The notes below the pieces were generated by a model that made no database searches, was not told where the DNA came from, and saw nothing but the letters and a program-made list of their open reading frames with translations. A stretch of DNA of 64,000 nt from Candidatus Zixiibacteriota bacterium (GTDB lineage: Bacteria > Zixibacteria > MSB-5A5 > DASWLN01): contig DASWLN010000168.1 of NCBI GenBank assembly GCA_036396115.1, forward strand, positions 3,362 to 67,361. The letters are read 5' to 3'. Shown one piece after another: positions 19,871-55,062 of this stretch. The position numbers were made by a program, and so were the translations under genes. Each line of letters begins with the position of its first letter. Positions within the stretch are counted from its first letter, which is position 1.

Positions 19871-19950
19871 TGTCATTGCGAGCGCTAGCGAAGCAATCTG
19901 AAGTAATCTCGGGATTGCTTCGTCGTCCATATGGACTCCTCGCAATGACA
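19871..19950. repeat. TGTCATTGCGAG MITE copy
   Basis: TIRs TGTCATTGCGAGCGCTAGCGAAGCAATC...GGACTCCTCGCAATGACA. Confidence 0.75.
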
Positions 19951-40775: not shown

Positions 40776-41631
40776 GGACAAGCTGGCGAGAATAATACCT
40801 GTCATTGCGCAAGAATATAACTTCAGATTGGAAATCATTGAGAAAGACTTTTATTTGACCCTCATTTTGAATAGTGTTGAGTCGCATTTAAGCGACAAAA
40901 TCGTCTTCAAGGGCGGAACGCTCTTAAATAAAATTCATCTTAATTATCACAGACTGAGCGAGGATATCGATTTTACATACCTTAGTCCGGATGGCTTAGA
41001 CACCCGCTCGAAAAGATCACATGCTTTGGCCCCGATAAGAGAGAAGATGCCCGAACTGTTGAAGCTTTTGGACCTGAAAAGCGAAAAACCCGAAGGGCAA
41101 GGTTTTAATAACTCCACTCAATATGTATTCAACATTTCCTACCCTTCTTTGATTTCCGGAAAGGACGAAAACATACAGTTAGAAATTTCATTAAGACAAA
41201 CGCCTATAGATAAGCCCGTGCATAATGTCATCGCACATTTTTATAAGGATCCTTTTACGGGTGAGGATTTAATTCCCAAGAATAAGATACTCTCGCTTTC
41301 TTTAAATGAAGCGGTTGCGGAGAAACTCAAAGCTTCAATAACAAGGAAAGATGCAGCTATCCGCGATTACTATGACTTATGGTATATATCGGAGACCAAA
41401 TTCGACTTTGAAGATAAAAAGTTCCTTTACATATTCAAGAAGAAGCTTGAATCCGAGAAATACAGAGCCAATTATTCATATAATTTCGGCTTGGATCAAA
41501 AAAAGGTTGAATTGCTTCATAAGCAAATAGAGACGGAATTAATACCTGTTATTCATGTAGGTGAAAGTTTTGATCTTGATAAAGTTTTCAGGCGGTTTAA
41601 TAGGATCTTGCAGAAAATATGGCGTGCGTGA
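40759..41631 (+). CDS. abiEii: nucleotidyltransferase AbiEii/AbiGii toxin family protein (DUF1814)
   Basis: IVFKGGTLLNKIHLNYHRLSEDIDFTY matches the KGGTAL...RFSEDID NTase signature. Confidence 0.8.
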   Translation: MLSMDRDKLARIIPVIAQEYNFRLEIIEKDFYLTLILNSVESHLSDKIVFKGGTLLNKIHLNYHRLSEDIDFTYLSPDGLDTRSKRSHALAPIREKMPELLKLLDLKSEKPEGQGFNNSTQYVFNISYPSLISGKDENIQLEISLRQTPIDKPVHNVIAHFYKDPFTGEDLIPKNKILSLSLNEAVAEKLKASITRKDAAIRDYYDLWYISETKFDFEDKKFLYIFKKKLESEKYRANYSYNFGLDQKKVELLHKQIETELIPVIHVGESFDLDKVFRRFNRILQKIWRA

Positions 41632-41647
41632 TATCCGTAAAAAGATA

Positions 41648-41785
41648 GTAGGGAACGGTCGCGTGGAACATCCCGCTAAAAGCGTGGAACCTGTCCCTAC
41701 AAAAACGGTGACATTAGAAATTGTGCCCCCGTAGGGACAGGTCGCGACCTGTCCTTAACAGAGACACCAATATCACAAGTTGTTT
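41648..41785. repeat. island REP cluster R2
   Basis: GTAGGGAACGGTCGCGTGGAACATCCCGCTAAAAGCGTGGAACCTGTCCCTAC plus GTAGGGACAGGTCGCGACCTGTCC. Confidence 0.8.
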
Positions 41786-41965
41786 GGCCTCGAGTTGGGA
41801 GAATTGAGTTGACAGAGCAATGAATTTGGAGCATATAAATAGGGTAGGTAAGATTGGTAAGACAGCTTATCCGCGAGCAAAGCAAATTCGCGCAACGAAG
41901 ATAGGACGATGGTGGGTTAAGCCTGAGGATTTAGAAAGTTTTATTAAAAGCAGGAGCAACATTCA

Positions 41966-42412
41966 ATGATGAAAATGACAAAAATTAGAGACAAATTAGA
42001 TTTAATTAGAGGGGAAATTATTTCATCTACAGCAAGAGTTGAATTTATTCTGGGCTATAAGTTAAGAAAATATTTTTTCCCCAAGGCCAATAATAAAGCA
42101 ACGATTCTTTTCTGGAACGTTATTAATACTCCTTTCCTTAATTTTGATAATAAAATTAGTCTTTATGAATCAATCCCGTATTTTAAAAAATTAAAAGGTC
42201 ATTCAGAGATTAAGAAATCTTTAAGGTTTATCCAAAAATTGAGAAATAAAATGGCTCATTGGGAACTGGATGAAAAGGAAAGCGACTTGAAGAATATTGT
42301 TATGTTTACATTGGTCGGGAAATATAGAAAAATAACAATTAATGATAGTTCAATTGAAGATTATAGGAAGCATGTTAATTTTCTTCTAAACAAATTTGGT
42401 TATAGTAGATGA
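41966..42412 (+). CDS. small HEPN-domain protein (Rx4-6H motif LRNKMAH)
   Basis: 148 aa, all-helical. HEPN signature seen directly in the sequence. Sits 115 nt upstream of the PHP-ATPase gene. Confidence 0.5.
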   Translation: MMKMTKIRDKLDLIRGEIISSTARVEFILGYKLRKYFFPKANNKATILFWNVINTPFLNFDNKISLYESIPYFKKLKGHSEIKKSLRFIQKLRNKMAHWELDEKESDLKNIVMFTLVGKYRKITINDSSIEDYRKHVNFLLNKFGYSR

Positions 42413-42526
42413 ATTTATCAGGCTTCGGTACTTGGATGCATTCATTAAGGCAAGGACAAATAAGTGAGAAAGATTTATTAATTCTGTTGAATCACATGCA
42501 TTGGGAGAGAATATAGATGCTGACAG

Positions 42527-45355
42527 ATGGAACGTTGTATGGATAAAGGTGCGCATTTTTACAGGTGTGATTTTCAAGTTCACACTCCGCGTGATCTAAA
42601 TTGGGCTGGTCCCGAGGCCGTTACACCCGAAGAAAGAAAGACATATGCGGAAGAACTGATTTTGGTTTGTCGATCCAAAGGTCTCGATGCAATCGCGATC
42701 ACGGATCATCATGACTTCGCCTTCTTCCCATACATCAAACAAGCGGCTAAAGATGAGCTTGACGACAACGGTCAACGGGTTTCTGCACACAAAAGGATCG
42801 TTGTCTTTCCTGGCATTGAAGTTACTTTAACTGCTCCGAATTGCCAAGCGTTACTTATCCTCGACGCAGACTTCCCGGAGAATCTCCTTCCAAGCGTTTT
42901 AACCGCACTGGCCATCACACCTGCGCCGGCAGAACATTCAAAGCACGCGGATGTACAGCGAATTCCCCAGAATGTTGTTAGCGATCTGACGGATTTATAT
43001 CAAAAACTGAATAGTCACCAGCAACTGAAGAATCGGTTTATCGTTTTACCTAATGTGAGCGAAACCGGATGCGGCACAATGCTACGATCCGGATTTGGTA
43101 ATTTCTATAAATCAATGCCATGCGTTGGTGGCTACACGGACGGCCCAGTGTCGCAATTTGGTACCGGGAACTTATCGATTGTTCGAGGAGAAAATCGAGA
43201 GTACGGTTTTAAGGCGATCGGAATCTTTCAAACATCTGATAATAGAAAACGCAATCACGAAGACCTCGGCAAATACACCACATGGGTTAAGTGGTCTGAG
43301 CCAACAGCGGAGGCCTTAAGACAGGCGTGTTTAGCAAAAGAATCAAGGATATCGCAAGAAGTTCCTTTGTTACCACCGGTATTCGTGACGTCAATTGATG
43401 TTTCTAACAGTAAATTCATGGGACAAATTTATCTGGAATTTAGCCAGCAATACAACGCCATAATCGGTGGTCGTGGAACTGGAAAATCAACAATCTTAGA
43501 ATATCTTAGATGGGGTTTGTGCGATCAGGTTTCAGAAATTGTACAAGATGAGGGAGAAATTCCTGGGTATCAGGAAAAAAGAAGGAAGCTTATAGAAAAG
43601 ACCCTGCTTCCGTTTGATTCTACGGTTCAGATTTCATTTGTCAAAAACAACGTTCCCCACATCCTTAGAAGAAAATCCGGAACGAACGAGATGTCTCTAA
43701 AAATTGGATCGGGGGAATTTCAACCTTGTGGTGAGGAGGATGTTAGAAACTTGCTCGCAATCCAAGCCTACAGCCAAAAGCAATTAAGCAGTGTCGGTGT
43801 CAGCATTGAGGAATTGAAAAGGCTGATTTATAGCCCCATCAGGCAAACGCTTAACGAGTTTGATTTAAAATTTGAGAAATTGCGCTCCGATATCAGAAGT
43901 TGCTATGAACTATGGCAGCAAAAAAAATTGATCGCATCTGAAATTGAGAAGGGCGAGCTTGAGCTTAAGTCATTGACTGAGCAAGTGGAAGGTCTCCGAC
44001 AAGGGCTAAAAGGAATCTCTGATCAAGATAAGGCTACAATTGCCTCCCATAAGCAATATGAAATTGTTGAGCAACATGTTGACGGTTGGCACGGAGAACT
44101 GGCGACGGCAAGAGAGGCATTAGAAACCATCAAAAGAGAACTCGCCGAGTATCCCACGACCGTACCTGATGATGTCAAATTGCCTGACACTGAGCTCATA
44201 GTTGTTACGGATATTCAGAAGACACTCAAAGACATTTTTGATGAGATTAACGCGACAGTTGATTCTTTGGGTGACAGATTAAATCCTAAGGGAGAGGTTC
44301 TGACCAAGTTAAACGATTTGATAGATAGTTGGAAAGGTGCTCTCAATCAACATAAGCGACAATATGAATCCGCAAAGCAAAAATCAACTTCACAGGAATC
44401 GACCTTAAAGCAAATCCAGATAATCGAAGATAGGGTTAAAGAAATAAGAAGATCTTTAACGGAAAGAAAGCAAGCCATGCTAAAAACAGGAGATCCCGAC
44501 ACAAAATTTAACGTCCTTAAAGAAGAGTGGTTTAACGCCCATAAGGAAAAGGCTGATTTGTTTCAAGCCCAAAGTGAGAAGTTGAATGAATTATCTGATG
44601 ATAATTTAAAAGCAACTCTAGGCAGAGGAAAGGGCACGGTAAACCTAGAAAACGTGCTAAAGGAGATAATCTCAGGTTCAAACGTGAGGAAGGAGAAAAT
44701 AGAATCTTTGTGCCAGAGAATTAAAGAGGCGACGGATCCTATTCAACAATGGAATCAAATCTTGGCCGAGTTTGAAGCAATTGCTCACTTCGATCCAACC
44801 AAAACCCCCGCCGCGACTTTACCGGCAACACCGATTTTAAGCTCTATCGGTTTTAGTGCAAACGATCTACGCAAAATAGCAGAGAAAATAAATAGCGAAA
44901 ACTGGATTGATCTATTTCTTGTTCAGTTGGACGATCTGCCTTTGTTTGAGTATCGTACTCGTGAAGGTGAGTATATAGAATTCACAGATGCTTCTGCCGG
45001 TCAACAGGCAACGTCTCTAATGAGGGTTTTATTAAATCAAGAAGGGCCTCCTCTTATAATTGATCAGCCGGAGGATGACTTGGATAATCGGATGGTTTCG
45101 GATATTGCGACTTTAATTTGGAAATCCAAGAAAACGAGGCAGTTAATATTCACAAGCCACAATGCAAACATTGTGGTTAATGGCGATGCAGAGTTGGTTG
45201 TCTGTTGCGGATACAAGGTTACGGGTGATCAATCAAAGGGTGAAATTAAGAATCAGGGAGCAATTGATATTGAGGAGATACGAGAGGAAATTATAGAGGT
45301 TATGGAGGGCGGCGAGGCAGCATTTAAGCTTCGCAAAGAAAAGTTTGGATTTTGA
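42527..45355 (+). CDS. PHP-family phosphoesterase fused to a Rad50/SMC-like ABC ATPase with a long coiled-coil insert (PplA-like defense protein)
   Basis: PHP motifs CDFQVHTPRD, AIAITDHHD, FPGIEVT. Walker A IIGGRGTGKSTILEYL. ~400 aa coiled coil. ABC signature SAGQQ, Walker B LIIDQPEDDLD, H-loop FTSHN. Alternative start at 42539. Confidence 0.7.
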   Translation: MERCMDKGAHFYRCDFQVHTPRDLNWAGPEAVTPEERKTYAEELILVCRSKGLDAIAITDHHDFAFFPYIKQAAKDELDDNGQRVSAHKRIVVFPGIEVTLTAPNCQALLILDADFPENLLPSVLTALAITPAPAEHSKHADVQRIPQNVVSDLTDLYQKLNSHQQLKNRFIVLPNVSETGCGTMLRSGFGNFYKSMPCVGGYTDGPVSQFGTGNLSIVRGENREYGFKAIGIFQTSDNRKRNHEDLGKYTTWVKWSEPTAEALRQACLAKESRISQEVPLLPPVFVTSIDVSNSKFMGQIYLEFSQQYNAIIGGRGTGKSTILEYLRWGLCDQVSEIVQDEGEIPGYQEKRRKLIEKTLLPFDSTVQISFVKNNVPHILRRKSGTNEMSLKIGSGEFQPCGEEDVRNLLAIQAYSQKQLSSVGVSIEELKRLIYSPIRQTLNEFDLKFEKLRSDIRSCYELWQQKKLIASEIEKGELELKSLTEQVEGLRQGLKGISDQDKATIASHKQYEIVEQHVDGWHGELATAREALETIKRELAEYPTTVPDDVKLPDTELIVVTDIQKTLKDIFDEINATVDSLGDRLNPKGEVLTKLNDLIDSWKGALNQHKRQYESAKQKSTSQESTLKQIQIIEDRVKEIRRSLTERKQAMLKTGDPDTKFNVLKEEWFNAHKEKADLFQAQSEKLNELSDDNLKATLGRGKGTVNLENVLKEIISGSNVRKEKIESLCQRIKEATDPIQQWNQILAEFEAIAHFDPTKTPAATLPATPILSSIGFSANDLRKIAEKINSENWIDLFLVQLDDLPLFEYRTREGEYIEFTDASAGQQATSLMRVLLNQEGPPLIIDQPEDDLDNRMVSDIATLIWKSKKTRQLIFTSHNANIVVNGDAELVVCCGYKVTGDQSKGEIKNQGAIDIEEIREEIIEVMEGGEAAFKLRKEKFGF

Positions 45356-45405: not shown

Positions 45406-45729
45406 ATGGCGATGAAGAAATCTGAACTTTACAGCTCTCTTTGGAAAAGCTGCGATGAATTAAGAGGCGGGATGGACGCCTCACAGTATAAAGACTATGT
45501 GTTGGTTTTGTTGTTTGTCAAATACATCTCTGATAAATATGCTGGCGTGACTTACGCCCCGATCACTATTCCTCAAGGTTCAGGCTTCAAGGATATGGTG
45601 GCACTCAAGGATAAGGCGACTATTGGCGACGACATCAACAAAAGAATTATCCAAAAAATTGAAGAGGCAAATCCATCGCTTGGAAATATTGCCGTTGATT
45701 TTAACGATCCAGCAAAATTAGACAGGTGG
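45406..45729 (+). pseudogene. hsdM: type I R-M methyltransferase HsdM, N-terminal fragment only
   Basis: SELYSSLWKSCDELRGGMDASQYKDYVLVLLFVKYISDKY is the HsdM_N signature. The reading frame then runs straight into repeat cluster R3, with no MTase catalytic domain. Confidence 0.65.
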
Positions 45730-45815
45730 CCCACAGCTCTGCTGTGGGACAATTGCGGAACGGTCTCGTGGAACATCCCGCTAGTGGCGTGGAACCTGTC
45801 CTTACAGAGATGTTG
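45724..45815. repeat. island REP cluster R3 (GGTGGCCCACAGCTCTGCTGTGGG plus CGGAACGGTCTCGTGGAACATCCCGCTAGTGGCGTGGAACCTGTCC)
   Basis: Same composite as 51098-51180. Confidence 0.8.
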
Positions 45816-45908
45816 ACAGAGCAAGCGGGATTGTTCTATAATATAGAACAGTTGTATGATATGAGCGAACTTGATCTATTATAATTTCAAGAATTTTGGG
45901 TAGGGTCA

Positions 45909-46817
45909 ATGATTATTGCAGAACGACAAGTTAAACCTTTTCTCAAATGGGCCGGCGGTAAAGGTCAGCTTATCGAACAAGTTGTTTCATACTTACCCTC
46001 TTCTCTAAAGGAAGGAAGAATAAAGAAATACTTTGAACCTTTTTTGGGCGGTGGGGCTCTTTTCTTCTGGTTGGCCAAACAATACGAGTTCAGGTCGTCT
46101 TACTTGTACGAAATTAATCCCGCAGTATGTCTTTGTTATCAAGTCATCAAAAAGAATGTGAGAAAGCTGGTTAAGGAATTACAGCAGTTGGAATTAGAAT
46201 ACTTTTCGTCTACTGAAAATAGAAAAGAACAAATTTACTACGATAGACGAGAAGAATTTAATGCGTTTTTACACGGGAAGGCATCCAATGGCGTTGTCCA
46301 TCGAACTGCCCTGTTAATATTTCTTAATAAAACGTGTTATAATGGGCTCTATCGCGTGAATTCACAAGGCGAATTTAATGTTCCCTTCGGACGATATAAG
46401 AAACCTACGATTTGCGACGAAGACAATCTTCATGCTGTTAGTGAATTACTGCAAAAGGCAGAGATCGTTTGTGGGGATTTTGCGCTATGTTTGGACTATG
46501 CGGACGACAAATCTTTTGTTTACTTTGATCCGCCATATCGACCCATATCTTCGACGTCAAGCTTTACGAGTTATTCAAAGGGTGTTTTTGATGATGCCGA
46601 GCAGAAACGCTTAAGAAAGGTTTATGGTTCGCTCGATAAGAAAGGTGCTTGCATAATGCTAAGCAATTCTGACCCAAAGAACATGAACCCCGAAGATAAT
46701 TTCTTTGATGAATTGTATAACAGATATCGTATTGTAAGGTTGAATGCAACAAGACTTATCAATTGCAACGCCAACCAAAGGGGCGTTATCACCGAGATAT
46801 TAGTGATGAACTATTAA
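45909..46817 (+). CDS. Dam-family (alpha-class, D12) N6-adenine DNA methyltransferase
   Basis: PFLKWAGGKGQL motif I and DPPY motif IV (FDPPY). Confidence 0.85.
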   Translation: MIIAERQVKPFLKWAGGKGQLIEQVVSYLPSSLKEGRIKKYFEPFLGGGALFFWLAKQYEFRSSYLYEINPAVCLCYQVIKKNVRKLVKELQQLELEYFSSTENRKEQIYYDRREEFNAFLHGKASNGVVHRTALLIFLNKTCYNGLYRVNSQGEFNVPFGRYKKPTICDEDNLHAVSELLQKAEIVCGDFALCLDYADDKSFVYFDPPYRPISSTSSFTSYSKGVFDDAEQKRLRKVYGSLDKKGACIMLSNSDPKNMNPEDNFFDELYNRYRIVRLNATRLINCNANQRGVITEILVMNY

Positions 46818-46826
46818 AAAGGATGT

Positions 46827-47600
46827 ATGATGGCGAATAGCAAATCTTGGAAGAAAATTGTTGACGACTATGAAATCTTAGGGCACGACTTTGACAAATC
46901 GCCGTTTGTGCTTTCTGCAAATCAAATAAAGAGAGCATGTCAGGAATTTAAAGAAACCGGCGAGAAAGAGGTTCGTATTTTGTGCAAACAGGATAATCGT
47001 GAAGACCGACCAGACGTCTTCATTGAAAATGGTCTTTTCCTGCTACCTGTCAGAAATGGCCTCTACAATATCATTAAAGGAGAGGGATATGTTGATATTC
47101 CGGAAATAAAGAAAGAGACTGCTATTTATTCTTCAATGCTTGATTTTAAATTAGAGACAACAGAAGTTGGGAACTCTGAAATGCAACATCTTGATTATGC
47201 TTATGCTAGCAGTCTAATACGCACATTCATGGACGATTCGTCGCTTGTATTGACAATAAGGGGAAGAAAGTACACGCCGGAATTCGAATTTTCTATTGGA
47301 AAGCATCAGATTAAAGTAGCAAGCGTACAAACTGAAGTTGACGCTGGTTATGAGGGGAAAAATCAGGTTGTTTTGATTGAGGCAAAAAATTTCAGTGCAA
47401 CAAACATTATTATTCGGCAACTTTACTATCCCTTTAGACAATGGCAGGCGCGAACGAAGAAAAAAGTAGTCACTTTATTTTTTGATAAAAACCCTGGCGA
47501 TAATTCTTATTCAATTTGGCATTTTGAATTTACAGATTCCCAGAACTATAACAGCATTCGGTTAGTAAAATCTGGTAAATATAGAATCATAGAAAAATAA
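46827..47600 (+). CDS. putative type II restriction endonuclease (PD-(D/E)xK)
   Basis: EVDAGY...VVLIEAK provides the D...E-x-K core. Sandwiched between two MTases as in DpnII/MboI/LlaDCHI-type systems. Confidence 0.5.
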   Translation: MMANSKSWKKIVDDYEILGHDFDKSPFVLSANQIKRACQEFKETGEKEVRILCKQDNREDRPDVFIENGLFLLPVRNGLYNIIKGEGYVDIPEIKKETAIYSSMLDFKLETTEVGNSEMQHLDYAYASSLIRTFMDDSSLVLTIRGRKYTPEFEFSIGKHQIKVASVQTEVDAGYEGKNQVVLIEAKNFSATNIIIRQLYYPFRQWQARTKKKVVTLFFDKNPGDNSYSIWHFEFTDSQNYNSIRLVKSGKYRIIEK

Positions 47601-47617
47601 ATGAGTCATTAAGCGCA

Positions 47618-48406
47618 ATGGATAAGAAAAATACTGATGAAAGATTGGAACCTCAAACAACTACCGTCTGGTCATTTCCAAATCGTGGTAAGTGGCTGTC
47701 GCATAACGCCAAGTATCGCGGCAACTGGGCACCACAGATTCCCAACAATCTAATTCAACTTTATTCTAAGGAAGGCGATATCGTTTTAGATCCTATGGTG
47801 GGAAGTGGGACGACAATGATTGAGGCCAAGTCTCTTGGTCGCAAAGGTCTTGCTTTTGACATTCACCCCGAAGTTGTCAAGTTGGCGCAGGATGCTTGCA
47901 TGTTTTCGTCGGAACAGAAGCATTTCGAGCCAGCTATTGAACAAGGGGACGCGCGGAATTTGAAATCACTGAAAGATCATAGCGTCGATTTCATCGCAAC
48001 GCACCCGCCCTATCTGAATATCATCAAATACGGAAGAAAGGACGTTGACGGTGACCTCTCTGCTATAAGCAGCCTCAAGAAATTCTGCGATGAAATTGAA
48101 AAGGTTGCTGGAGAATGTTATCGTATTCTAAAACCCGGAAAATTCTGTGCTATTCTGATTGGTGATACGCGTCGAAAGCGGCATTATGTTCCTCTTGCCT
48201 TTTCGGTCATGCAACGCTTTCTGAAGCCAGGATTTGTATTGAAAGAAGACGTTATTAAGATTCAACACAACTGTGCGACGACCAGATACTGGAATGCACA
48301 AATAAAGGACTTCTTGCTCATTATGCACGAACATTTATTTGTTTTTCGCAAGCCAGACGTTGATGAGGACAAATTTCTTTATAAGGATAGCATCTATAAT
48401 GTTTAG
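47618..48406 (+). CDS. beta-class N6/N4 DNA methyltransferase (N6_N4_Mtase family)
   Basis: Motif IV (HPPY) precedes motif I-like DPMVGSGTT (circularly permuted order typical of beta-class). Confidence 0.8.
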   Translation: MDKKNTDERLEPQTTTVWSFPNRGKWLSHNAKYRGNWAPQIPNNLIQLYSKEGDIVLDPMVGSGTTMIEAKSLGRKGLAFDIHPEVVKLAQDACMFSSEQKHFEPAIEQGDARNLKSLKDHSVDFIATHPPYLNIIKYGRKDVDGDLSAISSLKKFCDEIEKVAGECYRILKPGKFCAILIGDTRRKRHYVPLAFSVMQRFLKPGFVLKEDVIKIQHNCATTRYWNAQIKDFLLIMHEHLFVFRKPDVDEDKFLYKDSIYNV

Positions 48407-48413
48407 GTAAAGG

Positions 48414-48443
48414 CAGGTGGCCCACAGCCCTGCTGTGGAAGAA
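48414..48443. repeat. island REP unit R4 (GGTGGCCCACAGCCCTGCTGTGG hairpin)
   Basis: Identical to the 5' part of R3 and R5. Confidence 0.7.
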
Positions 48444-48536
48444 TTTCAATAAGACCCAAGAATTGTTTGTAGTTCACACATAGAATTGGTATAAATATAG
48501 ATAGCTCCAAGTTCCCTCTAAGACAAGGAGGCTTTT

Positions 48537-49337
48537 ATGAAAGAAGTAACCTCAGAAATCGACGGATTGGTGGTTCGTTCTAGCGGGATATGGATTAAAC
48601 AAAAATATTACTACTTGAAAAGATACCTGGATATTTTTTCAAAAGGAATGAAGAATAGATGGAAAGGAAATTTAACTTATATTGATCTATTTGCTGGACC
48701 TGGGCGTTGTTTAATAGAATCTATTAAGGAAGAAGAAGACGGTTCTCCTTTAATAGCATTGCAGTACGATTTTAAGAAATACGTTTTTGTTGAAGAATCA
48801 AAAGAACTAATTGAGGCTTTGAAAACAAGATGTAAAAATTCCCCCAAGTTTAGCAGGATTGAATTTTTAGAAGGAGATTGCAATAATGTTGTTGATGAAA
48901 TTATTCCTCAGGTTGACCCAGCCGGTTTAAACCTTATTTTTATTGATCCTACCGGAATCGATATCCATTACAAGACCATTGAAAGAATTGTTAAAAACAA
49001 CCGATCTGATTTGTTAATTAATGTTCAGCTCGGGATGTATATCACTAGAAATTTTCTTGCCTATAAGAAAAAGGGTGATAATTCAAAACTGGGATTATTC
49101 TTAGGGGGTAACGTTGATTGGGATAAATTAAAGAATCCCCAGGATGCAGTTAAGTTGTATAAAGAGCGTATCAAGGGGCTGGGTTATCAGACAGTAGAAT
49201 TCAAAGACATTACTATTAAAAATACCCTAAATGCCCCGATGTACTTTTTATTATTTGCTTCAAAGAATCCAAAAGGCCTGCATTTTTGGAAAGAGATAAC
49301 TAAAAAAGATCATTCTGGGCAGTTCGAGTTGTTTTAG
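48537..49337 (+). CDS. TcmP-like (three-Cys-motif partner protein) family candidate
   Basis: Recalled resemblance to TIGR04474-type proteins. Contains YIDLFAGPG, reminiscent of C5-MTase motif I (DLFAGxGG). Immediately upstream of a Cx3Cx3C protein. Confidence 0.5.
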   Translation: MKEVTSEIDGLVVRSSGIWIKQKYYYLKRYLDIFSKGMKNRWKGNLTYIDLFAGPGRCLIESIKEEEDGSPLIALQYDFKKYVFVEESKELIEALKTRCKNSPKFSRIEFLEGDCNNVVDEIIPQVDPAGLNLIFIDPTGIDIHYKTIERIVKNNRSDLLINVQLGMYITRNFLAYKKKGDNSKLGLFLGGNVDWDKLKNPQDAVKLYKERIKGLGYQTVEFKDITIKNTLNAPMYFLLFASKNPKGLHFWKEITKKDHSGQFELF

Positions 49338-49387
49338 CAAGAAAATTATCTTTCAGTATAATTCGTGGAAGATGGTATAATATAAAC

Positions 49388-50170
49388 ATGGAAAAAATTT
49401 ACCGTAAGTCTCTTTTGTACAAAAGTGAAGTCGAATACGCAGATTTTTGTTTGAATCATGTAGAAGGATGCTCCCATGGTTGCAAATATCCGTGCTATGC
49501 TTATATGATGAAAAAGAGGTGCGGGATTGTTAAAAGCTACGATGACTGGTGCAAACCAAAAATAGTAGGTAATGCGTTAGACCTCTTAGACAAAGAAATT
49601 CCTAAATATAAAAGCAAGATCAAATATGTGCACCTCTGTTTTTCTACTGATCCATTTATGTATAATCAAGAAGAAGTGAGCGATTTAAGCCTGAAAATAA
49701 TCGATAAGCTTAATTTAAACGGTATCCGTTGCACTGTTCTGACAAAAGGCGTTTTTCCTGAAGAAGTTGGTCATAAAACTGTTTTTAGCAAAAACAACGA
49801 ATATGGCATTACACTTGTTTCATTGGATGAAAATTTCAGAAAGAAATTTGAGCCAAATTCAGCCCCTTTTCGCAATAGAATTCGTTCGCTTGAGGATATA
49901 CACAAACAAGGTTTTAAGACCTGGGTGAGCATGGAACCATACCCTACTCCTAATTTGATTAAGCAAGATTTGCTTGAAATATTGGAAGCGGTGTCCTTTG
50001 TGGACCAGATTATCTTTGGCAGGTTGAATTACAGTGTGAAATCCTCGGAGTTTGGACATGCAAAGGAATTCTATAACAGTATGGCCTCGTCAGTGATTAA
50101 GTTTTGCAGGAAGCACAAGATCAAATACCATATTAAAGATGGAACCCAGAAGCTAAGTGGTGGACAATAG
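49388..50170 (+). CDS. non-canonical three-Cys-motif radical-SAM-like protein
   Basis: CLNHVEGCSHGCKYPCY gives a Cx3Cx3C cluster in place of the canonical Cx3Cx2C (compare hemW in this window). Confidence 0.5.
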   Translation: MEKIYRKSLLYKSEVEYADFCLNHVEGCSHGCKYPCYAYMMKKRCGIVKSYDDWCKPKIVGNALDLLDKEIPKYKSKIKYVHLCFSTDPFMYNQEEVSDLSLKIIDKLNLNGIRCTVLTKGVFPEEVGHKTVFSKNNEYGITLVSLDENFRKKFEPNSAPFRNRIRSLEDIHKQGFKTWVSMEPYPTPNLIKQDLLEILEAVSFVDQIIFGRLNYSVKSSEFGHAKEFYNSMASSVIKFCRKHKIKYHIKDGTQKLSGGQ

Positions 50171-50336
50171 TCTCTTTTTAAGGCACTACTCGGCAGACAA
50201 AACAGGGATTGCTTCGCTAAAGCTCACAATGACAGCTGAATACTGCAACTTAGTACGCCACCAAAGTTTTAGCGAGTGAAGGGAAAAGGGACCTTACCCG
50301 ATGGGTGGGGTACACTTGTTATCATGGGAGAAAAAC

Positions 50337-51044
50337 ATGACTAGGGCAGATAAATTTTTGTCTCTTTTTAATCTTATTGAAAAAACCCTTCACAAAATAA
50401 GTCCTCGCGAGCCTGGTGAGGGTTTTAAGGAAATGATTAATCGTCTCAGCAAGTCTAACAAGATTATTTGCCAATATAAATATGATTTAAGGGACTACGC
50501 CGACCTTAGAAATGCAATAGTTCATCAGTTTACAGGGGAAGCCATCGCCGAACCGCACGAAGATGTTATTGCCAATCTACAAACAATCCATGATATTTTG
50601 GTTAGACCACCGACAGCCATTGAAATTTCCTCCAAACCTGTTTATTGTTGCGAAGCAAAGGATAAAATTGTTGATGTAGTAAAAACAATGACAGCCAAAG
50701 TTTACACCCATGTCCCCGTTTACGAAGATGATAGATTCGTTGGTGTTTTCTCCGAATCCAGTATTGCAAGGTGGTTAGGCGAAAATGCGGAGAAAGACGG
50801 ATTTCTTTTGAATGAAACGAGAGTTGGGGAACTAAAACAATTCTTTGAGAAAGATAATGACCCCTTCAATTCTTACAAATTTGTTTCAAAGGATATTGAC
50901 GTATTTACTATTATGGACTATTTCTTATCTTTTGTTAATGAAAATAAACGTTTAGGAGCTATTTTTGTAACGAATAGCGGCAGGAGCAGTGAAGGAATAT
51001 TAGGAATTATTACATCATGGGATTTACCAAGAATTGATAAATAG
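50337..51044 (+). CDS. HEPN-like N-domain plus tandem CBS-domain protein
   Basis: N-terminal helical domain with Rx4H (LRNAIVH). C-terminal CBS pair (VYTHVPVYEDDRFVGVFSESSIARWL and GAIFVTNSGRSSEGILGIITSWDL). Confidence 0.5.
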   Translation: MTRADKFLSLFNLIEKTLHKISPREPGEGFKEMINRLSKSNKIICQYKYDLRDYADLRNAIVHQFTGEAIAEPHEDVIANLQTIHDILVRPPTAIEISSKPVYCCEAKDKIVDVVKTMTAKVYTHVPVYEDDRFVGVFSESSIARWLGENAEKDGFLLNETRVGELKQFFEKDNDPFNSYKFVSKDIDVFTIMDYFLSFVNENKRLGAIFVTNSGRSSEGILGIITSWDLPRIDK

Positions 51045-51097
51045 AAGAGAAAAGGTACTATATTCATCGGGGCTCAGTAATACTTACCACCCCACCG

Positions 51098-51325
51098 GCA
51101 GGTGGCCCACAGCCCTGCTGTGGGAGAGTTGCGGAACGGTCTCGTGGAACATCCCGCTGAAAGCGTGGAGCCGTTCCCTACAGAGAAGGTTGCGTGGGTG
51201 ATTTTAGGGTAGGGAACAGGCATGCCTGTTCCGTACAAAACGGCCGCGTGGATGATTGTGATGTAGGGACAGGTCACGTGGATGATTTTAGCGTAGGGAA
51301 CAGTCGCGACTGTTCCCTACAAAAA
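51098..51325. repeat. island REP cluster R5
   Basis: GGTGGCCCACAGCC..., CGGAACGGTCTCGTGGAACATCCCGCTGAAAGCGTGGAGCCGTTCCCTAC, GTAGGGAACAGGCATGCCTGTTCCGTAC, 30-nt CGCGTGGATGATTGTGA units and GTAGGGAACAGTCGCGACTGTTCCCTAC. Confidence 0.8.
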
Positions 51326-51345
51326 GATGAAGGCGATGTTTGTGT

Positions 51346-52629
51346 ATGAAAGTCAATACAAAACCGGATAAACTATGGGATGTGGTGGTGATTGGTGGTG
51401 GGCCGGCGGGGATGATGGCAGCGGGGAGGGCGGCTGAGTTGGGTCGCTCGGTTTTGCTCGTCGAGAAAAACGCAATTCTTGGCAAAAAGCTTCTCCTTAC
51501 CGGCGGCGGACGGTGTAATCTTTCCAATAATAAACCAGAACTTCGCACGATGCTGGCAAAATACAAAGGCGTTGACCAATTTCTTTTCTCCGCTTTTTCA
51601 CAGTTCGGCGTAGAAGATACGCTTGAGTTTTTTAAGCGGCAAGGGATGGCGACCAAGGAGGAAGCGGAGGGGAGGATTTTCCCTGTTTCAAATAAAGCGC
51701 AAACAGTGTTGGACGTACTGGTGAGCTATATGAAAGAGGGCGGTGTTGAATTACGAACCAACTCTGTAGTTACAAGGCTTTGGGTTGATGCTTCCAATAC
51801 CGCCACACAGCACATCCGTATCCGACTTAAGGACAAAACAGAGTTGTTGGCGCAATCCTGCGTTGTTGCCAGCGGAGGCACGGCACGTCCGGCAACCGGT
51901 TCAACTGGGGATGGATTTGCGTGGCTTAAAAAAATCGGCCACACCATCATCCAGGACGACGTTGCGCTTGTGCCCGTCGCGCTTAAAGATGCGTGGGCAA
52001 AGAAACTGAGCGGAGTAACGCTTATAGATATTAAGCTCACCACTTTTCAAAACAAAGAGAAACAGGAAGTTGGGAAAGGTGAACTGCTCTTTACGCACTT
52101 TGGCATCAGCGGGCCAACAGTTTTAGATATGAGTAAAGAAATAGGAGAACTTTTAAAATACGGCGAAGTTACCATCATGCTAGATATATTTCCGAAACTT
52201 GATCACGGCGCGCTCAGGGATAAACTGCAGACGCTTTTGAATAGCCAGAGTAACAAGAAGTTAAAAAATACGATGAATAAGCTCGTCCCTTTAGCGCTTG
52301 TGCCGGCGATACTCCGACTGACTGGTGTAGATGGCCAGTTACCCAGTCATAGCCTGAGGCGCGAGCATAGGATAAAATTGGTTAGTGTGATGAAGGCCAT
52401 CCCGCTTAATGTCAAGGGTTTGCTTGGTGCGGATAAAGCGATTGTCTGTTCTGGTGGCGTAGCGCTCGAAGAAGTAGATTTCAGAACCATGCAGTCGCGC
52501 CTGGTACCAAATTTATATATTGTGGGCGATTTACTGAACATCGATCGCCCCTCAGGAGGCTATAGCCTCCAGCTCTGTTGGACAACCGGCTTTGTGGCGG
52601 GGAGCAATACGGAACGGTCGCGTGGATGA
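51346..52629 (+). CDS. HI0933/BaiN-family NAD(P)/FAD-dependent flavoprotein
   Basis: VVVIGGGPAGMMAAGRAA, GGGRCNLSN and the C-terminal HI0933 domain. Its last codons overlap the start of repeat cluster R6. Confidence 0.85.
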   Translation: MKVNTKPDKLWDVVVIGGGPAGMMAAGRAAELGRSVLLVEKNAILGKKLLLTGGGRCNLSNNKPELRTMLAKYKGVDQFLFSAFSQFGVEDTLEFFKRQGMATKEEAEGRIFPVSNKAQTVLDVLVSYMKEGGVELRTNSVVTRLWVDASNTATQHIRIRLKDKTELLAQSCVVASGGTARPATGSTGDGFAWLKKIGHTIIQDDVALVPVALKDAWAKKLSGVTLIDIKLTTFQNKEKQEVGKGELLFTHFGISGPTVLDMSKEIGELLKYGEVTIMLDIFPKLDHGALRDKLQTLLNSQSNKKLKNTMNKLVPLALVPAILRLTGVDGQLPSHSLRREHRIKLVSVMKAIPLNVKGLLGADKAIVCSGGVALEEVDFRTMQSRLVPNLYIVGDLLNIDRPSGGYSLQLCWTTGFVAGSNTERSRG

Positions 52630-52795
52630 TTGTGATGTACGGACAGGTCGCGACCTGTCCCTACAAAAACGGCCGCGTGGTTGATTGTGACGTTAGGAAC
52701 GGTCGCGTGGATGATTTTGGCGTAGGGAACAGGCATGCCTGTTCCCTACTTGAGAGCGTGGAACCGTTCCCTACAGAAACACCAATATCAAAAAA
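52609..52795. repeat. island REP cluster R6
   Basis: Tandem 30-nt CGCGTGGATGATTGTGA units interleaved with GTACGGACAGGTCGCGACCTGTCCCTAC and GTAGGGAACAGGCATGCCTGTTCCCTAC. Confidence 0.8.
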
Positions 52796-52987: not shown

Positions 52988-53581
52988 ATGATAATCCGTT
53001 GCACGGCAAGATTTTTAAAAGAAATGGGATTAACCAAGGCCGATCTCACCAGCAACACTTCAGAAGAATCAGAGTTGGGCGAGTGGTATACTAATCTGTT
53101 TTTTGTCGAACGTAAGAAATGTGTGATTTTTACTAATGCCCGAACTTTATTTACGTTCATATGGTTTGATGTTGATAGATCAGAGATCAGGAATCTTGGT
53201 AAGCTTTTCCGCATTGGTTTCGGCAAGGCCCTATTGGATGAAGATTTCGATGGTGCGTTGATACAGCATCTCGTTAACGAGTGCCGAGATATACGATTTG
53301 CCAAAACACAAGACAGAAGCGTACTCGGCGTTATGGTGGATCACGTCAAGAACACAAAATGGATGGTCATACGCGATGGCGGATTAGAAAAATCCGATTT
53401 CTCTGAAATAATAAAACAACTTAATCGCACACCGCTTTTAACGAAAGACTTTACTTATTCTATTGAGGAGCTTGGGAAGGTTTTGGGAGTTGCTGTAGAT
53501 ACGAAACTTAATTTTAATCCGTCTAATACGTTTTTGTCATCAAGCGCGCCCGAAATAAGGGACAATAAGGAACAGGCTTAA
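52988..53581 (+). CDS. hypothetical protein, 197 aa
   Basis: Protein-like composition on the island's coding strand. No family recognised. Confidence 0.4.
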   Translation: MIIRCTARFLKEMGLTKADLTSNTSEESELGEWYTNLFFVERKKCVIFTNARTLFTFIWFDVDRSEIRNLGKLFRIGFGKALLDEDFDGALIQHLVNECRDIRFAKTQDRSVLGVMVDHVKNTKWMVIRDGGLEKSDFSEIIKQLNRTPLLTKDFTYSIEELGKVLGVAVDTKLNFNPSNTFLSSSAPEIRDNKEQA

Positions 53582-53589
53582 GAGACAAT

Positions 53590-53770
53590 ATGGTTGATTG
53601 TGACGTACGGAACGGTCTCGTGGAACATCCCGCTGAAAGCGTGGAACCGTTCCCTACAAAAACGGCCGCGTGGATGATTGTGACGTACGGAACGGCCGCG
53701 TGGATGATTGTGACATGTGGAACGGTCGCGTGGAACATCCCGCTAACAGCGTGGAACCGTTCCCTACGAA
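53590..53770. repeat. island REP cluster R7
   Basis: Three tandem 30-nt units flanked by CGGAACGGTCTCGTGGAACATCCCGCTGAAAGCGTGGAACCGTTCCCTAC copies. Confidence 0.8.
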
Positions 53771-53797
53771 AACCGAATATACCTCGAGGAGGTTTGA

Positions 53798-54847
53798 GTG
53801 CCATTTAACCCGAAATTCACTATTACCGCGAAAATCAACAAGGCGCTGGTAGAAATTGAACGGGTGCGGGGGTTCTTAGATGCGTTGAAGCTCAAGGATG
53901 ACTGGTTTATTGATATGCAACAAAAAGCATTAATCTTAGAGTCGCACCATTCCACGCATATTGAAGGCACAGCCTTAAGCTTGCAGCAAGCCAAGTCCAT
54001 CCTGGAAGGCAAAAAGGCCAATGGTGTCAGGGCTGACGATAAAAGGGAACTTACAAATTACAAGAAGGCCATGGATTTGGTTTCAAGATATCTTGGCAAG
54101 GATGATCCAATCACCGAAAGCGCTATCTCTGGGCTTCACAAAGTTACTGTGAAAAGCGTCCGTGGCGGACAGGCAGACCCGGGCAATTACCGGAAAATCC
54201 AGAATTATGTGGTCAATTCCCGCACCCGGAAAGTAATTTACACCCCGCCGGGTCCGCTTACGGTCCCGCTTCTCATGCGCGAGTTTGTAGATTGGCTCAA
54301 CAAAACCGAGGAGGTGTCGCCGATTCTTGTTGCCGGCATAGCGCAGTTTCAGTTTGTGCATATTCATCCCTTTGTTGACGGCAATGGCCGGATGGCCCGG
54401 CTTCTCTCAACTTTAATCCTTTACAAAACCGGCTATGACTTCAAGCGGTTATTTACCATCTCGGAGTATTACGACAAAGACCGTCCAAGCTACTATAAGG
54501 CCATCCAGTCAGTGCGTGAGGGCAATATGGACATGACCGGCTGGCTGGAGTACTTCGTTTGTGGCCTGCGTTCGCAGATGGAAGAAATCCAAGCTAAAGG
54601 CCAGCAGTTAATTAAACAAGATGTCAAACTTCAGAAGATTAAAAAACTTGGGATTGGCCTGCGTCAGGAAAAGGCGGTCAAGCATCTAATTATTAAAGGT
54701 ACGATTACGGTTAATGAATATCAGGAGATTGCCTCATGTGTCCGACGGACAGCCCAGAGAGATTTGGAAGATTTAGTTGACAAAGGCATCATCCAAGCCG
54801 TGGCCAAGAGCGCTACCGATCCCACAAAGTATTACGTTTTACTGTGA
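53798..54847 (+). CDS. Fic/DOC family protein (putative AMPylase)
   Basis: Canonical Fic motif HPFVDGNGRMARL and a C-terminal wHTH (TAQRDLEDLV). Confidence 0.85.
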   Translation: MPFNPKFTITAKINKALVEIERVRGFLDALKLKDDWFIDMQQKALILESHHSTHIEGTALSLQQAKSILEGKKANGVRADDKRELTNYKKAMDLVSRYLGKDDPITESAISGLHKVTVKSVRGGQADPGNYRKIQNYVVNSRTRKVIYTPPGPLTVPLLMREFVDWLNKTEEVSPILVAGIAQFQFVHIHPFVDGNGRMARLLSTLILYKTGYDFKRLFTISEYYDKDRPSYYKAIQSVREGNMDMTGWLEYFVCGLRSQMEEIQAKGQQLIKQDVKLQKIKKLGIGLRQEKAVKHLIIKGTITVNEYQEIASCVRRTAQRDLEDLVDKGIIQAVAKSATDPTKYYVLL

Positions 54848-55062
54848 CACGTTACTGTGACATACTGTGACATGCTACTGTGACATACGGAACGGTCTCG
54901 TGGTTGATTTTAGCGTAGGGAACAGGCATGCCTGTTCCCTACAAAAACGGACGCGGGGATGATTGTGACATACGGAATGGTCGCGTGGATGATTGTGATG
55001 TAGGGACAGGTCGCGTGGATGATTGTCGCGTAGGGAATGGTCGCGACCATTCCCTACAAAAG
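54841..55062. repeat. island REP cluster R8
   Basis: (T)ACTGTGACA x4 tandem, then GTAGGGAACAGGCATGCCTGTTCCCTAC, 30-nt units and GTAGGGAATGGTCGCGACCATTCCCTAC. The Fic stop codon lies in the first ACTGTGACA unit. Confidence 0.8.

What the first reader, a model, noticed from the sequence alone, without database searches (positions are those of the whole stretch)
48537..51044. Three-gene module TcmP-like / Cx3Cx3C radical-SAM-like / HEPN-CBS, boxed between REP clusters: candidate uncharacterised defense system
Seen in sequence: a protein with a C5-MTase-motif-I-like YIDLFAGPG element, a protein whose only Cys cluster is the non-canonical CSHGCKYPC (Cx3Cx3C), and a protein combining an Rx4H HEPN-type motif with two CBS domains. 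The three form one co-oriented block delimited by repeats R4 and R5 inside an island otherwise made of Abi, R-M, PHP-ATPase and Fic modules. From memory, TcmP/three-Cys pairs have no assigned function. Pairing a putative RNase (HEPN) with a ligand-sensing CBS pair and an rSAM-like enzyme suggests a nucleotide- or modification-based immune or signalling module.
Basis: partly seen in the sequence, partly recalled or inferred. Interest (0 to 1): 0.85.

Follow-up and report, generated by a model that had tools for sequence, protein, structure and literature searches.

The report
TcmP–radical-SAM pair, separate HEPN–CBS gene
The block is not one three-gene system: it is a widespread but uncharacterised two-gene cassette (a methyltransferase-like protein plus a radical SAM enzyme resembling a DNA-repair lyase) that sits beside restriction and DNA-damage genes in many genomes, followed by an unrelated stand-alone gene for a probable ligand-regulated RNase.

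Summary
They do not form one system.

**Genes 1 and 2** (TcmP, 48537-49337; radical SAM, 49388-50170) are a conserved cassette:
- 38 of 46 informative genome loci keep them adjacent or fused.
- DNA homology to four other loci covers only 48526-50216.

**Gene 3** (HEPN RNxxxH + CBS, 50337-51044) is absent from all 60 loci holding a radical SAM homolog. None of 85 independent loci holding a HEPN-CBS homolog carries TcmP or the radical SAM gene.

**What the pair looks like:**
- The TcmP model is closest to the RlmJ methyltransferase fold.
- The radical SAM protein is closest to spore photoproduct lyase, with an invariant Pro-inserted cluster motif (CX3CX2PC).
- The radical SAM partner is under strong purifying selection (median 72% identity, dS saturated). 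TcmP is hypervariable (median 25%) and reassorts between loci.
- Neighbours are mostly R-M enzymes (types IIG, ISP, III, I) or LexA/DinB.

**Favoured reading:** a two-subunit, SAM-dependent enzyme acting on DNA. It is a variant of the untested TcmP/DUF5131 candidates (PADLOC PDC-M41/M30). HEPN-CBS is an independent single gene. The chemistry and biological role remain unproven.

The parts
48412..48445 (.). Short REP-like repeat at the upstream edge of the cassette; it separates the cassette from the type II R-M genes (45909-48406).
   Evidence: three copies in the window (45721, 48412, 51097), 0 expected by chance.
48537..49337 (+). TcmP: a class-I SAM methyltransferase-fold protein. Motif I is D50-L-F-A-G-P-G56; the motif IV-like element is D137-P-T-G. 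It is the hypervariable partner of the pair.
49388..50170 (+). Radical SAM enzyme resembling spore photoproduct lyase. The cluster motif is C28-x3-C32-x2-P35-C36. It is the highly conserved partner of the pair.
48526..50216 (+). Extent of the two-gene cassette, defined by nucleotide homology to independent loci.
   Evidence: Homology spans: L063 48526-49612 (to the contig end), L024 48533-50148, L015 48536-50136, L008 49412-50216.
50207..50234 (.). Short repeated motif in the 166-nt spacer between the radical SAM gene and the HEPN-CBS gene. Homology with the related strain breaks here.
50337..51044 (+). HEPN(RNxxxH)-CBS protein: an independent single-gene unit (an alternative upstream ATG lies at 50301).
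   Evidence: for the domains. for the lack of linkage.
51097..51344 (.). Composite REP cluster at the downstream edge of the block.
   Evidence: repeat families D1-D4.

Best explanation
**Shown: the block holds two unrelated units.**

Unit A (48526-50216) is a two-gene cassette. It encodes TcmP, which has an RlmJ-like SAM-methyltransferase fold, and a small radical SAM enzyme resembling spore photoproduct lyase, with a Pro-inserted CX3CX2PC cluster motif. The two proteins work together.

Unit B (50337-51044) is a solitary gene. It encodes an N-terminal HEPN-type domain with an invariant RNxxxH motif fused to a CBS pair.

**Inferred: how unit A works.** TcmP binds SAM and supplies substrate recognition, probably by flipping a base out of a nucleic acid. 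The radical SAM subunit reductively cleaves SAM and abstracts a hydrogen from the presented base or sugar, as SPL does on DNA. The outcome would be a covalent modification or processing of DNA.

The hypervariable TcmP paired with an almost invariant radical SAM subunit resembles the specificity/catalysis split of Mod/Res or HsdS/HsdR. The cassette rides in R-M operons and LexA/DinB loci, so its role lies in DNA conflict or DNA-damage biology.

**Inferred: how unit B works.** It is most likely an RNase whose activity is gated by an adenosine-type ligand bound to the CBS pair. It is not a component of unit A.
For: **The pair is a unit.**
- Of 46 loci with at least 900 nt upstream of the radical SAM gene, 37 have a full TcmP adjacent and 1 has a fusion. 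Two have a decayed TcmP and one an interrupted TcmP.
- Three independent TcmP-radical SAM fusions are confirmed by TIGR04474 hits.
- Nucleotide homology to four other loci covers exactly these two genes.

**HEPN-CBS is separate.**
- It is linked in 0 of 60 radical SAM loci and 0 of 85 HEPN-CBS loci.
- The related strain has AbiE at that position.

**Fold evidence.**
- RadicalSAM.org places SPL, DUF5131 and MJ0683-like proteins in one megacluster (PMC9477430).

**Asymmetric evolution.**
- Median identity between loci is 72% for the radical SAM protein and 25% for TcmP.
- Radical SAM dS is saturated with dN about 0.15.
- L024's TcmP is 83% identical to the window's (dS 0.6), while its radical SAM partner is only 77% identical with saturated dS. 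This indicates reassortment.

**DNA-related context.**
- Type IIG/Eco57I/MmeI, Type ISP, ResIII/HsdR or type III Mod-Res genes sit tightly adjacent in about 16 of about 50 loci.
- LexA lies upstream in 6 loci and a Y-family polymerase downstream in 3.
- In the window itself a type II R-M lies directly upstream.

**HEPN-CBS domains.**
Against: - No biochemistry exists for any TcmP or for its partner.
- The structural relatives of TcmP (RlmJ, Trm1) act on RNA, not DNA, so the substrate could be RNA.
- The radical SAM protein lacks about 80 residues relative to SPL. The SPL catalytic Cys aligns one residue away from the family's conserved C84, so SPL-like chemistry is not established.
- Intact radical SAM genes exist without a recognisable TcmP: L001 (seen on 50 contigs), L030, L047 and L058. 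In L008 the gene is still under purifying selection (dN/dS 0.13) beside a decayed TcmP.
- TcmP divergence is spread over the whole protein rather than confined to a discrete recognition domain.
- Gene 3 lies on the same strand 166 nt downstream with no convincing terminator. Co-transcription in this genome cannot be excluded.
- Most loci come from metagenome-assembled genomes.
Confidence: 0.6

Rival explanations
1. One reading: one three-gene defence system. TcmP and the radical SAM enzyme make or sense a modified nucleotide, and HEPN-CBS is the ligand-gated RNase effector.
For: All three genes are co-oriented between REP repeats inside a defence island. No strong terminator lies between genes 2 and 3. 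The same three-gene arrangement appears in a second sample of the same population (L076).
Against: Linkage is 0 of 60 and 0 of 85 in either direction. The related strain has AbiE in place of gene 3. Homology to other loci ends at 50216, and a repeat lies in the spacer. HEPN-CBS neighbours elsewhere are mostly housekeeping genes. REPs also box an ordinary flavoprotein gene.
Confidence: 0.04
2. The TcmP-radical SAM pair is a DNA-damage repair or tolerance module of the SOS response. Like SPL, it would reverse a DNA lesion directly. It would not be a conflict system.
For: SPL is the closest known enzyme. LexA-TcmP-radical SAM-DinB arrangements occur in L024, L037 and L039, with LexA also present in L035 and L055/62. 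SplB-like radical SAM proteins have already been tied to SOS and mutagenesis operons (PMC3765255). The radical SAM protein is under very strong purifying selection.
Against: A lesion-specific repair factor should not need a hypervariable, reassorting partner. Distribution is patchy across phyla. The pair sits in variable islands and is operonic with R-M enzymes or next to integrases. One genome can carry two pairs with different TcmP types (L013 and L063 from one MAG).
Confidence: 0.15
3. The pair is a self-protection or anti-restriction module of mobile elements. It would modify the element's own DNA to evade host R-M, rather than defending the host.
For: The classical TcmP/DUF5131 pairs occur in prophages (PMC12429752). 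An integrase-TcmP-radical SAM-Mod-Res element was deposited as an 'unverified bacteriophage'. An integrase lies next to the pair in L038.
Against: This radical SAM family is almost absent from 50,697 phage records and 72,556 plasmid records: one full-length and one partial match above 50% identity. Most loci are chromosomal and sit next to the host's own R-M genes.
Confidence: 0.1
4. The pair targets RNA (rRNA or tRNA) as an abortive-infection effector, or makes a small-molecule antiviral nucleotide in the manner of viperin.
Against: SPL clearly outranks viperin and the RNA-modifying radical SAM enzymes, and it is the only sequence-profile hit. Both recurrent genomic contexts, R-M and LexA/DinB, concern DNA.
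Confidence: 0.1

Closest known systems
TcmP / three-Cys-motif protein pairs (TIGR04474 with PF07505 DUF5131); PADLOC candidates PDC-M41 and PDC-M30
   Same: Gene 1 is a bona fide TcmP and hits PDC-M41A at 1.3e-25. It is paired with a small three-Cys protein of the radical SAM superfamily. It is found beside R-M systems, which is how the PDC candidates were defined.
   Different: The partner does not reach the DUF5131 cut-off (19.4 bits against 28.9) and matches only that model's N-terminal third. It hits PDC-M41B at only 1.2e-4. It passes PF04055 instead and is closest to SPL. PDC systems are untested predictions, so the known kind itself has no established function.
Spore photoproduct lyase (SplB; PDB 4FHC)
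   Different: The window protein has 260 residues against 340. An extra Pro sits in the cluster motif. No equivalog-level similarity exists. The catalytic Cys is not in register. It has an obligatory methyltransferase-like partner, which SPL lacks.
RlmJ (23S rRNA m6A2030 methyltransferase) and the RlmJ-like protein LPL1258
   Different: There is no detectable sequence similarity. TcmP motif IV is DP[FYT]G rather than (D/N)PP(Y/F). TcmP always comes with a radical SAM partner.
Type III (Mod/Res) and type I (HsdS/HsdR) restriction-modification logic
   Same: A fast-evolving, reassorting methyltransferase-fold subunit is combined with a conserved catalytic subunit. Fused single-chain versions occur occasionally. 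Both sit in the same kind of genomic neighbourhood.
   Different: There is no nuclease or helicase domain, and the conserved subunit is a radical SAM enzyme. No evidence of self/non-self discrimination exists. This is an analogy only.
SplB-like radical SAM proteins of SOS/mutagenesis cassettes (PA0069 and Rv2578c families)
   Same: These are the best NCBIfam hits, though weak at 4e-11 and 3e-10. They share the LexA association.
   Different: Scores are far below the cut-offs (42 bits against 360). Those families pair with DUF4130/UDG, not with TcmP.
HEPN RNases embedded in R-M loci (PrrC, RloC) and CBS-regulated proteins
   Same: Gene 3 has the Rx4H motif. A few homologs follow hsdS in type I R-M operons (L070, L092, L094). 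The CBS pair suggests control by an adenosine-type ligand.
   Different: There is no ABC ATPase domain. Most homologs sit among housekeeping genes. The HEPN assignment is below Pfam thresholds.

Membership tests
TcmP (TIGR04474) | The HMM score exceeds the curated cut-off. | tested here: met
   158.6 bits against a cut-off of 53, covering profile positions 4-263 of 263.
TcmP (TIGR04474) | The gene is adjacent to a three-Cys-motif, radical-SAM-like partner. | tested here: met
   The partner lies 50 nt downstream in the window. In 46 informative loci, 37 have a full adjacent TcmP and 1 has a fusion.
Radical SAM superfamily (PF04055) | The HMM score exceeds the Pfam gathering threshold. | tested here: met
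   41.5 bits against 29.5.
Radical SAM superfamily (PF04055) | A canonical CX3CX2C cluster motif is present. | tested here: not met
   The motif is CX3CX3C (C28, C32, C36 with P35 inserted), invariant in 50 homologs. Of the 102 representatives that contain the motif region, 80 share it; more distant relatives have CX3CX2C.
Radical SAM superfamily (PF04055) | The protein has the partial TIM-barrel fold. | tested here: met
Radical SAM superfamily (PF04055) | The protein binds a [4Fe-4S] cluster and reductively cleaves SAM. | not testable with these tools
   This needs reconstituted protein.
DUF5131 / PF07505 (the classical three-Cys partner) | The HMM score exceeds the gathering threshold. | tested here: not met
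   19.4 bits against 28.9, covering only residues 13-92. A few close homologs carry a precomputed PF07505 hit.
Spore photoproduct lyase | Full-length similarity, including the catalytic Cys and the C-terminal DNA-binding part. | tested here: not met
   Profile E 5e-6 over residues 11-193 only. The SPL catalytic Cys aligns with F85, next to C84. The window protein is about 80 residues shorter.
PADLOC PDC-M41 (two-gene candidate) | Both component HMMs are matched. | tested here: inconclusive
   Component A at 1.3e-25; component B at only 1.2e-4 over residues 12-90.
PADLOC PDC-M41 (two-gene candidate) | Anti-phage activity has been demonstrated. | not testable with these tools
   PDC systems are guilt-by-embedding predictions and were not assayed.
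HEPN superfamily | A conserved Rx4-6H motif is present. | tested here: met
   R58, N59 and H63 are invariant in 41 homologs.
HEPN superfamily | A significant profile match or a helical HEPN fold is found. | tested here: inconclusive
   Only sub-threshold hits: RiboL-PSP in 17 of 41 members (best 0.0014), HepT-like in 10 of 41 (best 1.1e-4), and PADLOC CARF_HEPN at 2e-4.
CBS pair (Bateman module) | Two tandem CBS domains are present. | tested here: inconclusive
   One CBS domain scores 47 bits. The second is suggested only by alignment across whole Bateman modules, for example IMPDH positions 110-233.
   0 of 60 radical SAM loci and 0 of 85 independent HEPN-CBS loci.

The most novel reading that the evidence does not exclude
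The TcmP-radical SAM pair is a new class of DNA-directed conflict enzyme. A hypervariable methyltransferase-fold subunit would choose the DNA site, and an ultra-conserved SPL-like radical SAM subunit would perform radical chemistry on it. The outcome would be either a new DNA hypermodification that serves as a self mark, or a radical-based 'restriction' lesion on foreign DNA. That would extend radical SAM chemistry to sequence-specific DNA targeting in immunity.
Probability: 0.25. Interest if true: 0.85.

Novelty: new variant of a known kind. Interest (0 to 1): 0.5.

Why it matters
TcmP has carried a curated name for years, and its pairs are listed as defence candidates, yet nobody knows what they do. 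This window holds a clean example of a large sub-family: more than 6,000 homologs were retrieved, falling into 139 clusters at 50% identity. In this sub-family the partner is an SPL-like radical SAM enzyme with a non-canonical, invariant cluster motif.

Three observations together make a concrete, testable case for a two-subunit radical SAM enzyme acting on DNA:
- The catalytic partner is nearly frozen while TcmP is hypervariable and reassorts between loci.
- The two proteins have fused several times.
- The pair is tightly embedded in R-M operons and LexA/DinB loci.

If true, it would add a new chemistry to restriction-modification or DNA-repair biology. The analysis also removes a tempting but wrong three-gene model.

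Tried and rejected
- **Wrong frame.** My first translation of gene 3 was out of frame. I corrected it to a start at 50337.
- **Locus search.** The search for related loci with the full HEPN-CBS alignment failed because no conserved stretch was found. I repeated it with the 19 closest sequences.
- **Promoters and terminators.** The scan gave nothing beyond chance: 11 found against 8.4 expected, and 3 against 2.0.
- **RNA families.** Rfam returned no match in 48300-51400.
- **LexA box.** I looked for a shared LexA-box-like palindrome upstream of TcmP in the LexA-linked loci and in the window, and found none.
- **Literature.** I found no functional study of TcmP, DUF5131, PF07505, COG4422 or the 'radical SAM mobile pair'. 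The string CX3CX3C appears only once, in a review that applies it to NifB.
- **Sequence search against PDB.** Neither TcmP nor the single radical SAM sequence gave a hit. Only the family profile reached SPL.
- **Viral structures.** Foldseek against viral structures gave only generic radical SAM hits.
- **Divergent TcmP in L001.** The 438-aa protein upstream of the TcmP-less radical SAM gene gave only a marginal signal (E 0.007) and no NCBIfam hit.
- **Recognition domain.** I tested whether TcmP variability is confined to a recognition domain. It is not.
- **C5-cytosine methyltransferase.** I rejected this reading of TcmP. Motif I resembles that class, but there is no PCQ-type catalytic motif and the fold match is RlmJ-like.
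Full report
**1. What is in the sequence**

Three co-oriented ORFs occupy 48537-49337, 49388-50170 and 50301-51044. The third more likely starts at the ATG at 50337, which follows a purine-rich stretch. That start gives the 235-aa protein found 100% identical in public data (P0121).

Gene 1 carries TYIDLFAGPG. [quoted passage not shown]

Gene 2 carries GCSHGCKYPCYA. It passes Pfam Radical_SAM (41.5 bits against 29.5). It matches DUF5131 only weakly, and only over that model's N-terminal third. Its best NCBIfam hits are SplB-like families (PA0069, Rv2578c, 'mobile pair B'), all far below their cut-offs.

Gene 3 has one CBS domain above threshold and a weak HEPN signal.

The repeat GGTGGCCCACAGCCCTGCTGTGG occurs three times, at 45725, 48416 and 51101, against 0 expected by chance. 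Composite REP clusters mark most gene junctions from 45.7 to 55 kb.

The same repeats also box an ordinary HI0933-like flavoprotein gene. A different short repeat (50207-50234, also at 19871) lies in the 166-nt spacer between genes 2 and 3.

**2. Genes 1 and 2 are a conserved pair; gene 3 is not part of it**

The radical SAM protein retrieved 6,067 homologs. The best 120 are all 75-92% identical and are annotated from Nitrospirota, Omnitrophota, Desantisbacteria and other phyla.

A scan of one genome per species returned 60 loci. I called ORFs in them and searched iteratively with the three window proteins. The results:
- Among 46 loci with at least 900 nt upstream of the radical SAM gene, 37 have a full-length TcmP directly adjacent on the same strand.
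- One locus has a TcmP-radical SAM fusion.
- Two have a decayed TcmP, one has a TcmP separated by an insertion, and five have none.
- No locus has a HEPN-CBS homolog.

I then tested linkage from the other side. The HEPN-CBS protein has 48 listed homologs and 487 confirmed matches in metagenomes. In 85 independent loci there is no TcmP and no radical SAM homolog. The only positives are the window's own contig and a second sample of the same population.

No neighbour family recurs in more than 7 of 84 HEPN-CBS loci. The 115 flanking proteins are mostly housekeeping: GGDEF, purD, glycosidases and oxidoreductases. Only two are HsdS.

Nucleotide comparisons delimit the cassette precisely:

| Locus | Window span matched | Identity |
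|---|---|---|
| L063 | 48526-49612 (to contig end) | 90.6% |
| L024 | 48533-50148 | 78% |
| L015 | 48536-50136 | 71.5% |
| L008 | 49412-50216 | 93% |

L008 is a syntenic island of a related strain. It has the radical SAM gene preceded by a 66-aa TcmP remnant and followed by AbiEi/AbiEii.

**3. What the pair looks like**

*Radical SAM protein.*
- The AF2 model has pLDDT 80 and pTM 0.81.
- A profile of 46 diverse family members finds SPL as the only significant PDB hit (E 5e-6). The alignment covers the cluster loop, a TxD motif and an EPx7R motif.
- The SPL hydrogen-donor Cys aligns one residue after the family's conserved C84, so equivalence is unproven.
- C28, C32, P35 and C36 are invariant in 50 TcmP-linked homologs.
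- Of the 150 cluster representatives, 102 contain the motif region. Eighty of these carry CX3CX2PC. Twenty-two, all more distant, carry the canonical CX3CX2C. The 30%-identical Thermoplasmata relatives that lack TcmP also carry the canonical motif.
- RadicalSAM.org places SPL, DUF5131 and MJ0683-like proteins in one megacluster (PMC9477430).

*TcmP.*
- The AF2 model has pLDDT 92.
- Conserved across all TcmP subtypes are motif I (DxFxGxG), a motif IV-like DP[FYT]G, and K23, Y30, R171 and Y236.
- It is therefore a SAM-binding methyltransferase-fold protein of the exocyclic-amine type, not a C5-cytosine methyltransferase.

**4. Evolutionary behaviour**

Across 703 locus pairs the median identity is 72% for the radical SAM protein and 25% for TcmP. 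Radical SAM synonymous sites are saturated while dN is about 0.15, which indicates strong purifying selection rather than recent spread.

The two genes reassort. L024's TcmP is 83% identical to the window's (dS 0.6), while its radical SAM gene is 77% identical with saturated dS. Conversely, L008's radical SAM gene is 93% identical at the nucleotide level beside an unrelated TcmP remnant.

At least eight TcmP subtypes, from 246 to 434 aa, combine with one radical SAM clade. One MAG carries two pairs with different TcmP types (L013 and L063). The divergence is spread along the whole TcmP sequence.

Three natural fusions argue for a physical complex: P0290, P0298 and L056, each with a TIGR04474 N-terminal half.

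**5. Genomic company**

*R-M enzymes.* Immediately upstream, often with a gap of 50 nt or less or an overlap, lie large enzymes of these kinds:
- Eco57I/MmeI-type IIG enzymes (family F1, 10 loci)
- Type ISP enzymes (3 loci)
- another N6-methyltransferase fusion
- ResIII helicases and an HsdR

A contig deposited as an unverified bacteriophage reads integrase, TcmP, radical SAM, type III Mod, Res.

*SOS genes.* A second recurrent context is LexA upstream (6 loci) and a Y-family polymerase downstream (3 loci). This recalls the known SOS association of SplB-like radical SAM genes (PMC3765255).

*Other neighbours.* These include Fic, MNT-type nucleotidyltransferases and IrrE-type peptidases.

*Phages and plasmids.* The family is nearly absent from sequenced phages and plasmids.

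*The window itself.* The pair follows a type II R-M (methyltransferase, REase_II, methyltransferase; 45909-48406). It lies in an island with AbiEi/AbiEii, Ppl, an hsdM fragment, PDC-S63 and SoFic.

**6. Interpretation**

Shown:
- The block holds two independent units.
- The pair is a cooperating, horizontally shuffled cassette.
- Its folds are RlmJ-like and SPL-like.
- Its company is DNA-centred.

Inferred, with about 55% confidence that the substrate is DNA: TcmP presents a nucleic-acid site and the radical SAM subunit performs SAM-radical chemistry on it. The arrangement is analogous to the specificity/catalysis split of Mod/Res.

Whether the outcome is a protective modification, a lesion on foreign DNA or a repair reaction cannot be decided here. 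The SOS-repair reading, the mobile-element self-protection reading and the RNA or small-molecule readings remain open.

PADLOC's PDC-M41 and PDC-M30 (TcmP plus DUF5131) are the closest catalogued entities. They are untested guilt-by-embedding predictions (bioRxiv 10.1101/2024.01.29.577857).

**7. Gene 3**

Its family's only invariant residues are R58, N59, H63 and T212. Forty of 41 members hit CBS, 17 weakly hit HEPN_RiboL-PSP and 10 weakly hit HepT-like. Profile alignment to Bateman modules supports a CBS pair.

It is best read as a stand-alone RNase gated by an adenosine-type ligand. It is a variable cassette in this island and is embedded in type I R-M operons in a few genomes (L070, L092, L094). 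In most genomes it sits among housekeeping genes.

**8. Verdict**

The three-gene system is not supported. The two-gene module is a real, uncharacterised variant of a known candidate kind, with features that make it a good experimental target.

Noticed in passing
L024:177-4293; L037:4381-8186; L039; L035; L055/L062: A LexA (S24 peptidase) gene lies directly upstream of the TcmP-radical SAM pair and a Y-family (ImpB/DinB) polymerase directly downstream. This looks like an SOS-type operon built around the pair. L024 carries the TcmP subtype closest to the window's.
   Followed up: partly
P0290, P0298, L056:4918-6855; also P0294 (1002 aa): Natural single-chain TcmP-radical SAM fusions exist. P0294 joins the radical SAM domain to a different, roughly 740-aa N-terminal region containing a 'NLDYQG' element. 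That region was not identified.
   Followed up: partly
L001-L007 (Nitrospirae CG population, 50 contigs): An intact radical SAM gene has no recognisable TcmP. It sits downstream of a type IIG MmeI/Eco57I-like enzyme, a 631-aa reverse transcriptase and an unannotated 438-aa protein. An RT wedged between an R-M enzyme and the radical SAM gene is unusual.
   Followed up: partly
window 45406-45816: A 136-aa ORF holds only the HsdM N-terminal domain and runs into the REP repeat at 45721-45810. It appears to be a remnant of a type I R-M system. The related strain L008 has a similar fragment directly before its radical SAM gene.
   Followed up: partly
window 45909-48406: A complete type II R-M lies directly upstream of TcmP. 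It comprises a D12-class Dam-like methyltransferase, a REase_II (DUF6996/6997) and an N6/N4 methyltransferase. This fits the general R-M adjacency of the pair.
   Followed up: yes
window 40002-45355 and 52988-54847: The rest of the island holds AbiEi/AbiEii (40002-41631), a PHP-ATPase matching PADLOC Ppl (42527-45355), a DUF6933 protein matching candidate PDC-S63 (52988-53581) and SoFic (53798-54847).
   Followed up: yes
window 51097-51344, 52607-52773, 53575-53772, 54885-55036: Composite REP-like repeat clusters built from several sub-units sit at almost every gene junction. The related strain L008 has the HI0933-like and DUF6933 genes in the opposite order. The repeats may therefore mediate cassette shuffling.
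   Followed up: partly
window 54840-54885: Two tandem copies of a 23-nt unit (TACTGTGACAYGYTACTGTGACA) lie just after the Fic gene.
   Followed up: no
L157 (MT836112.1, 'UNVERIFIED: Bacteriophage sp.'): The record reads integrase, DUF6550, TcmP (416 aa), radical SAM, type III Mod, Res. It looks like an integrative defence island rather than a phage genome.
   Followed up: partly
window as a whole versus L063 and L008: The window's HEPN-CBS protein is labelled Zixibacteria in NCBI (P0121). The window's TcmP-radical SAM cassette is 90.6% identical in DNA to one in an Omnitrophota MAG (L063). The island is syntenic with a JGI contig (L008). The cause is either recent horizontal transfer or MAG binning or taxonomy problems.
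   Followed up: no
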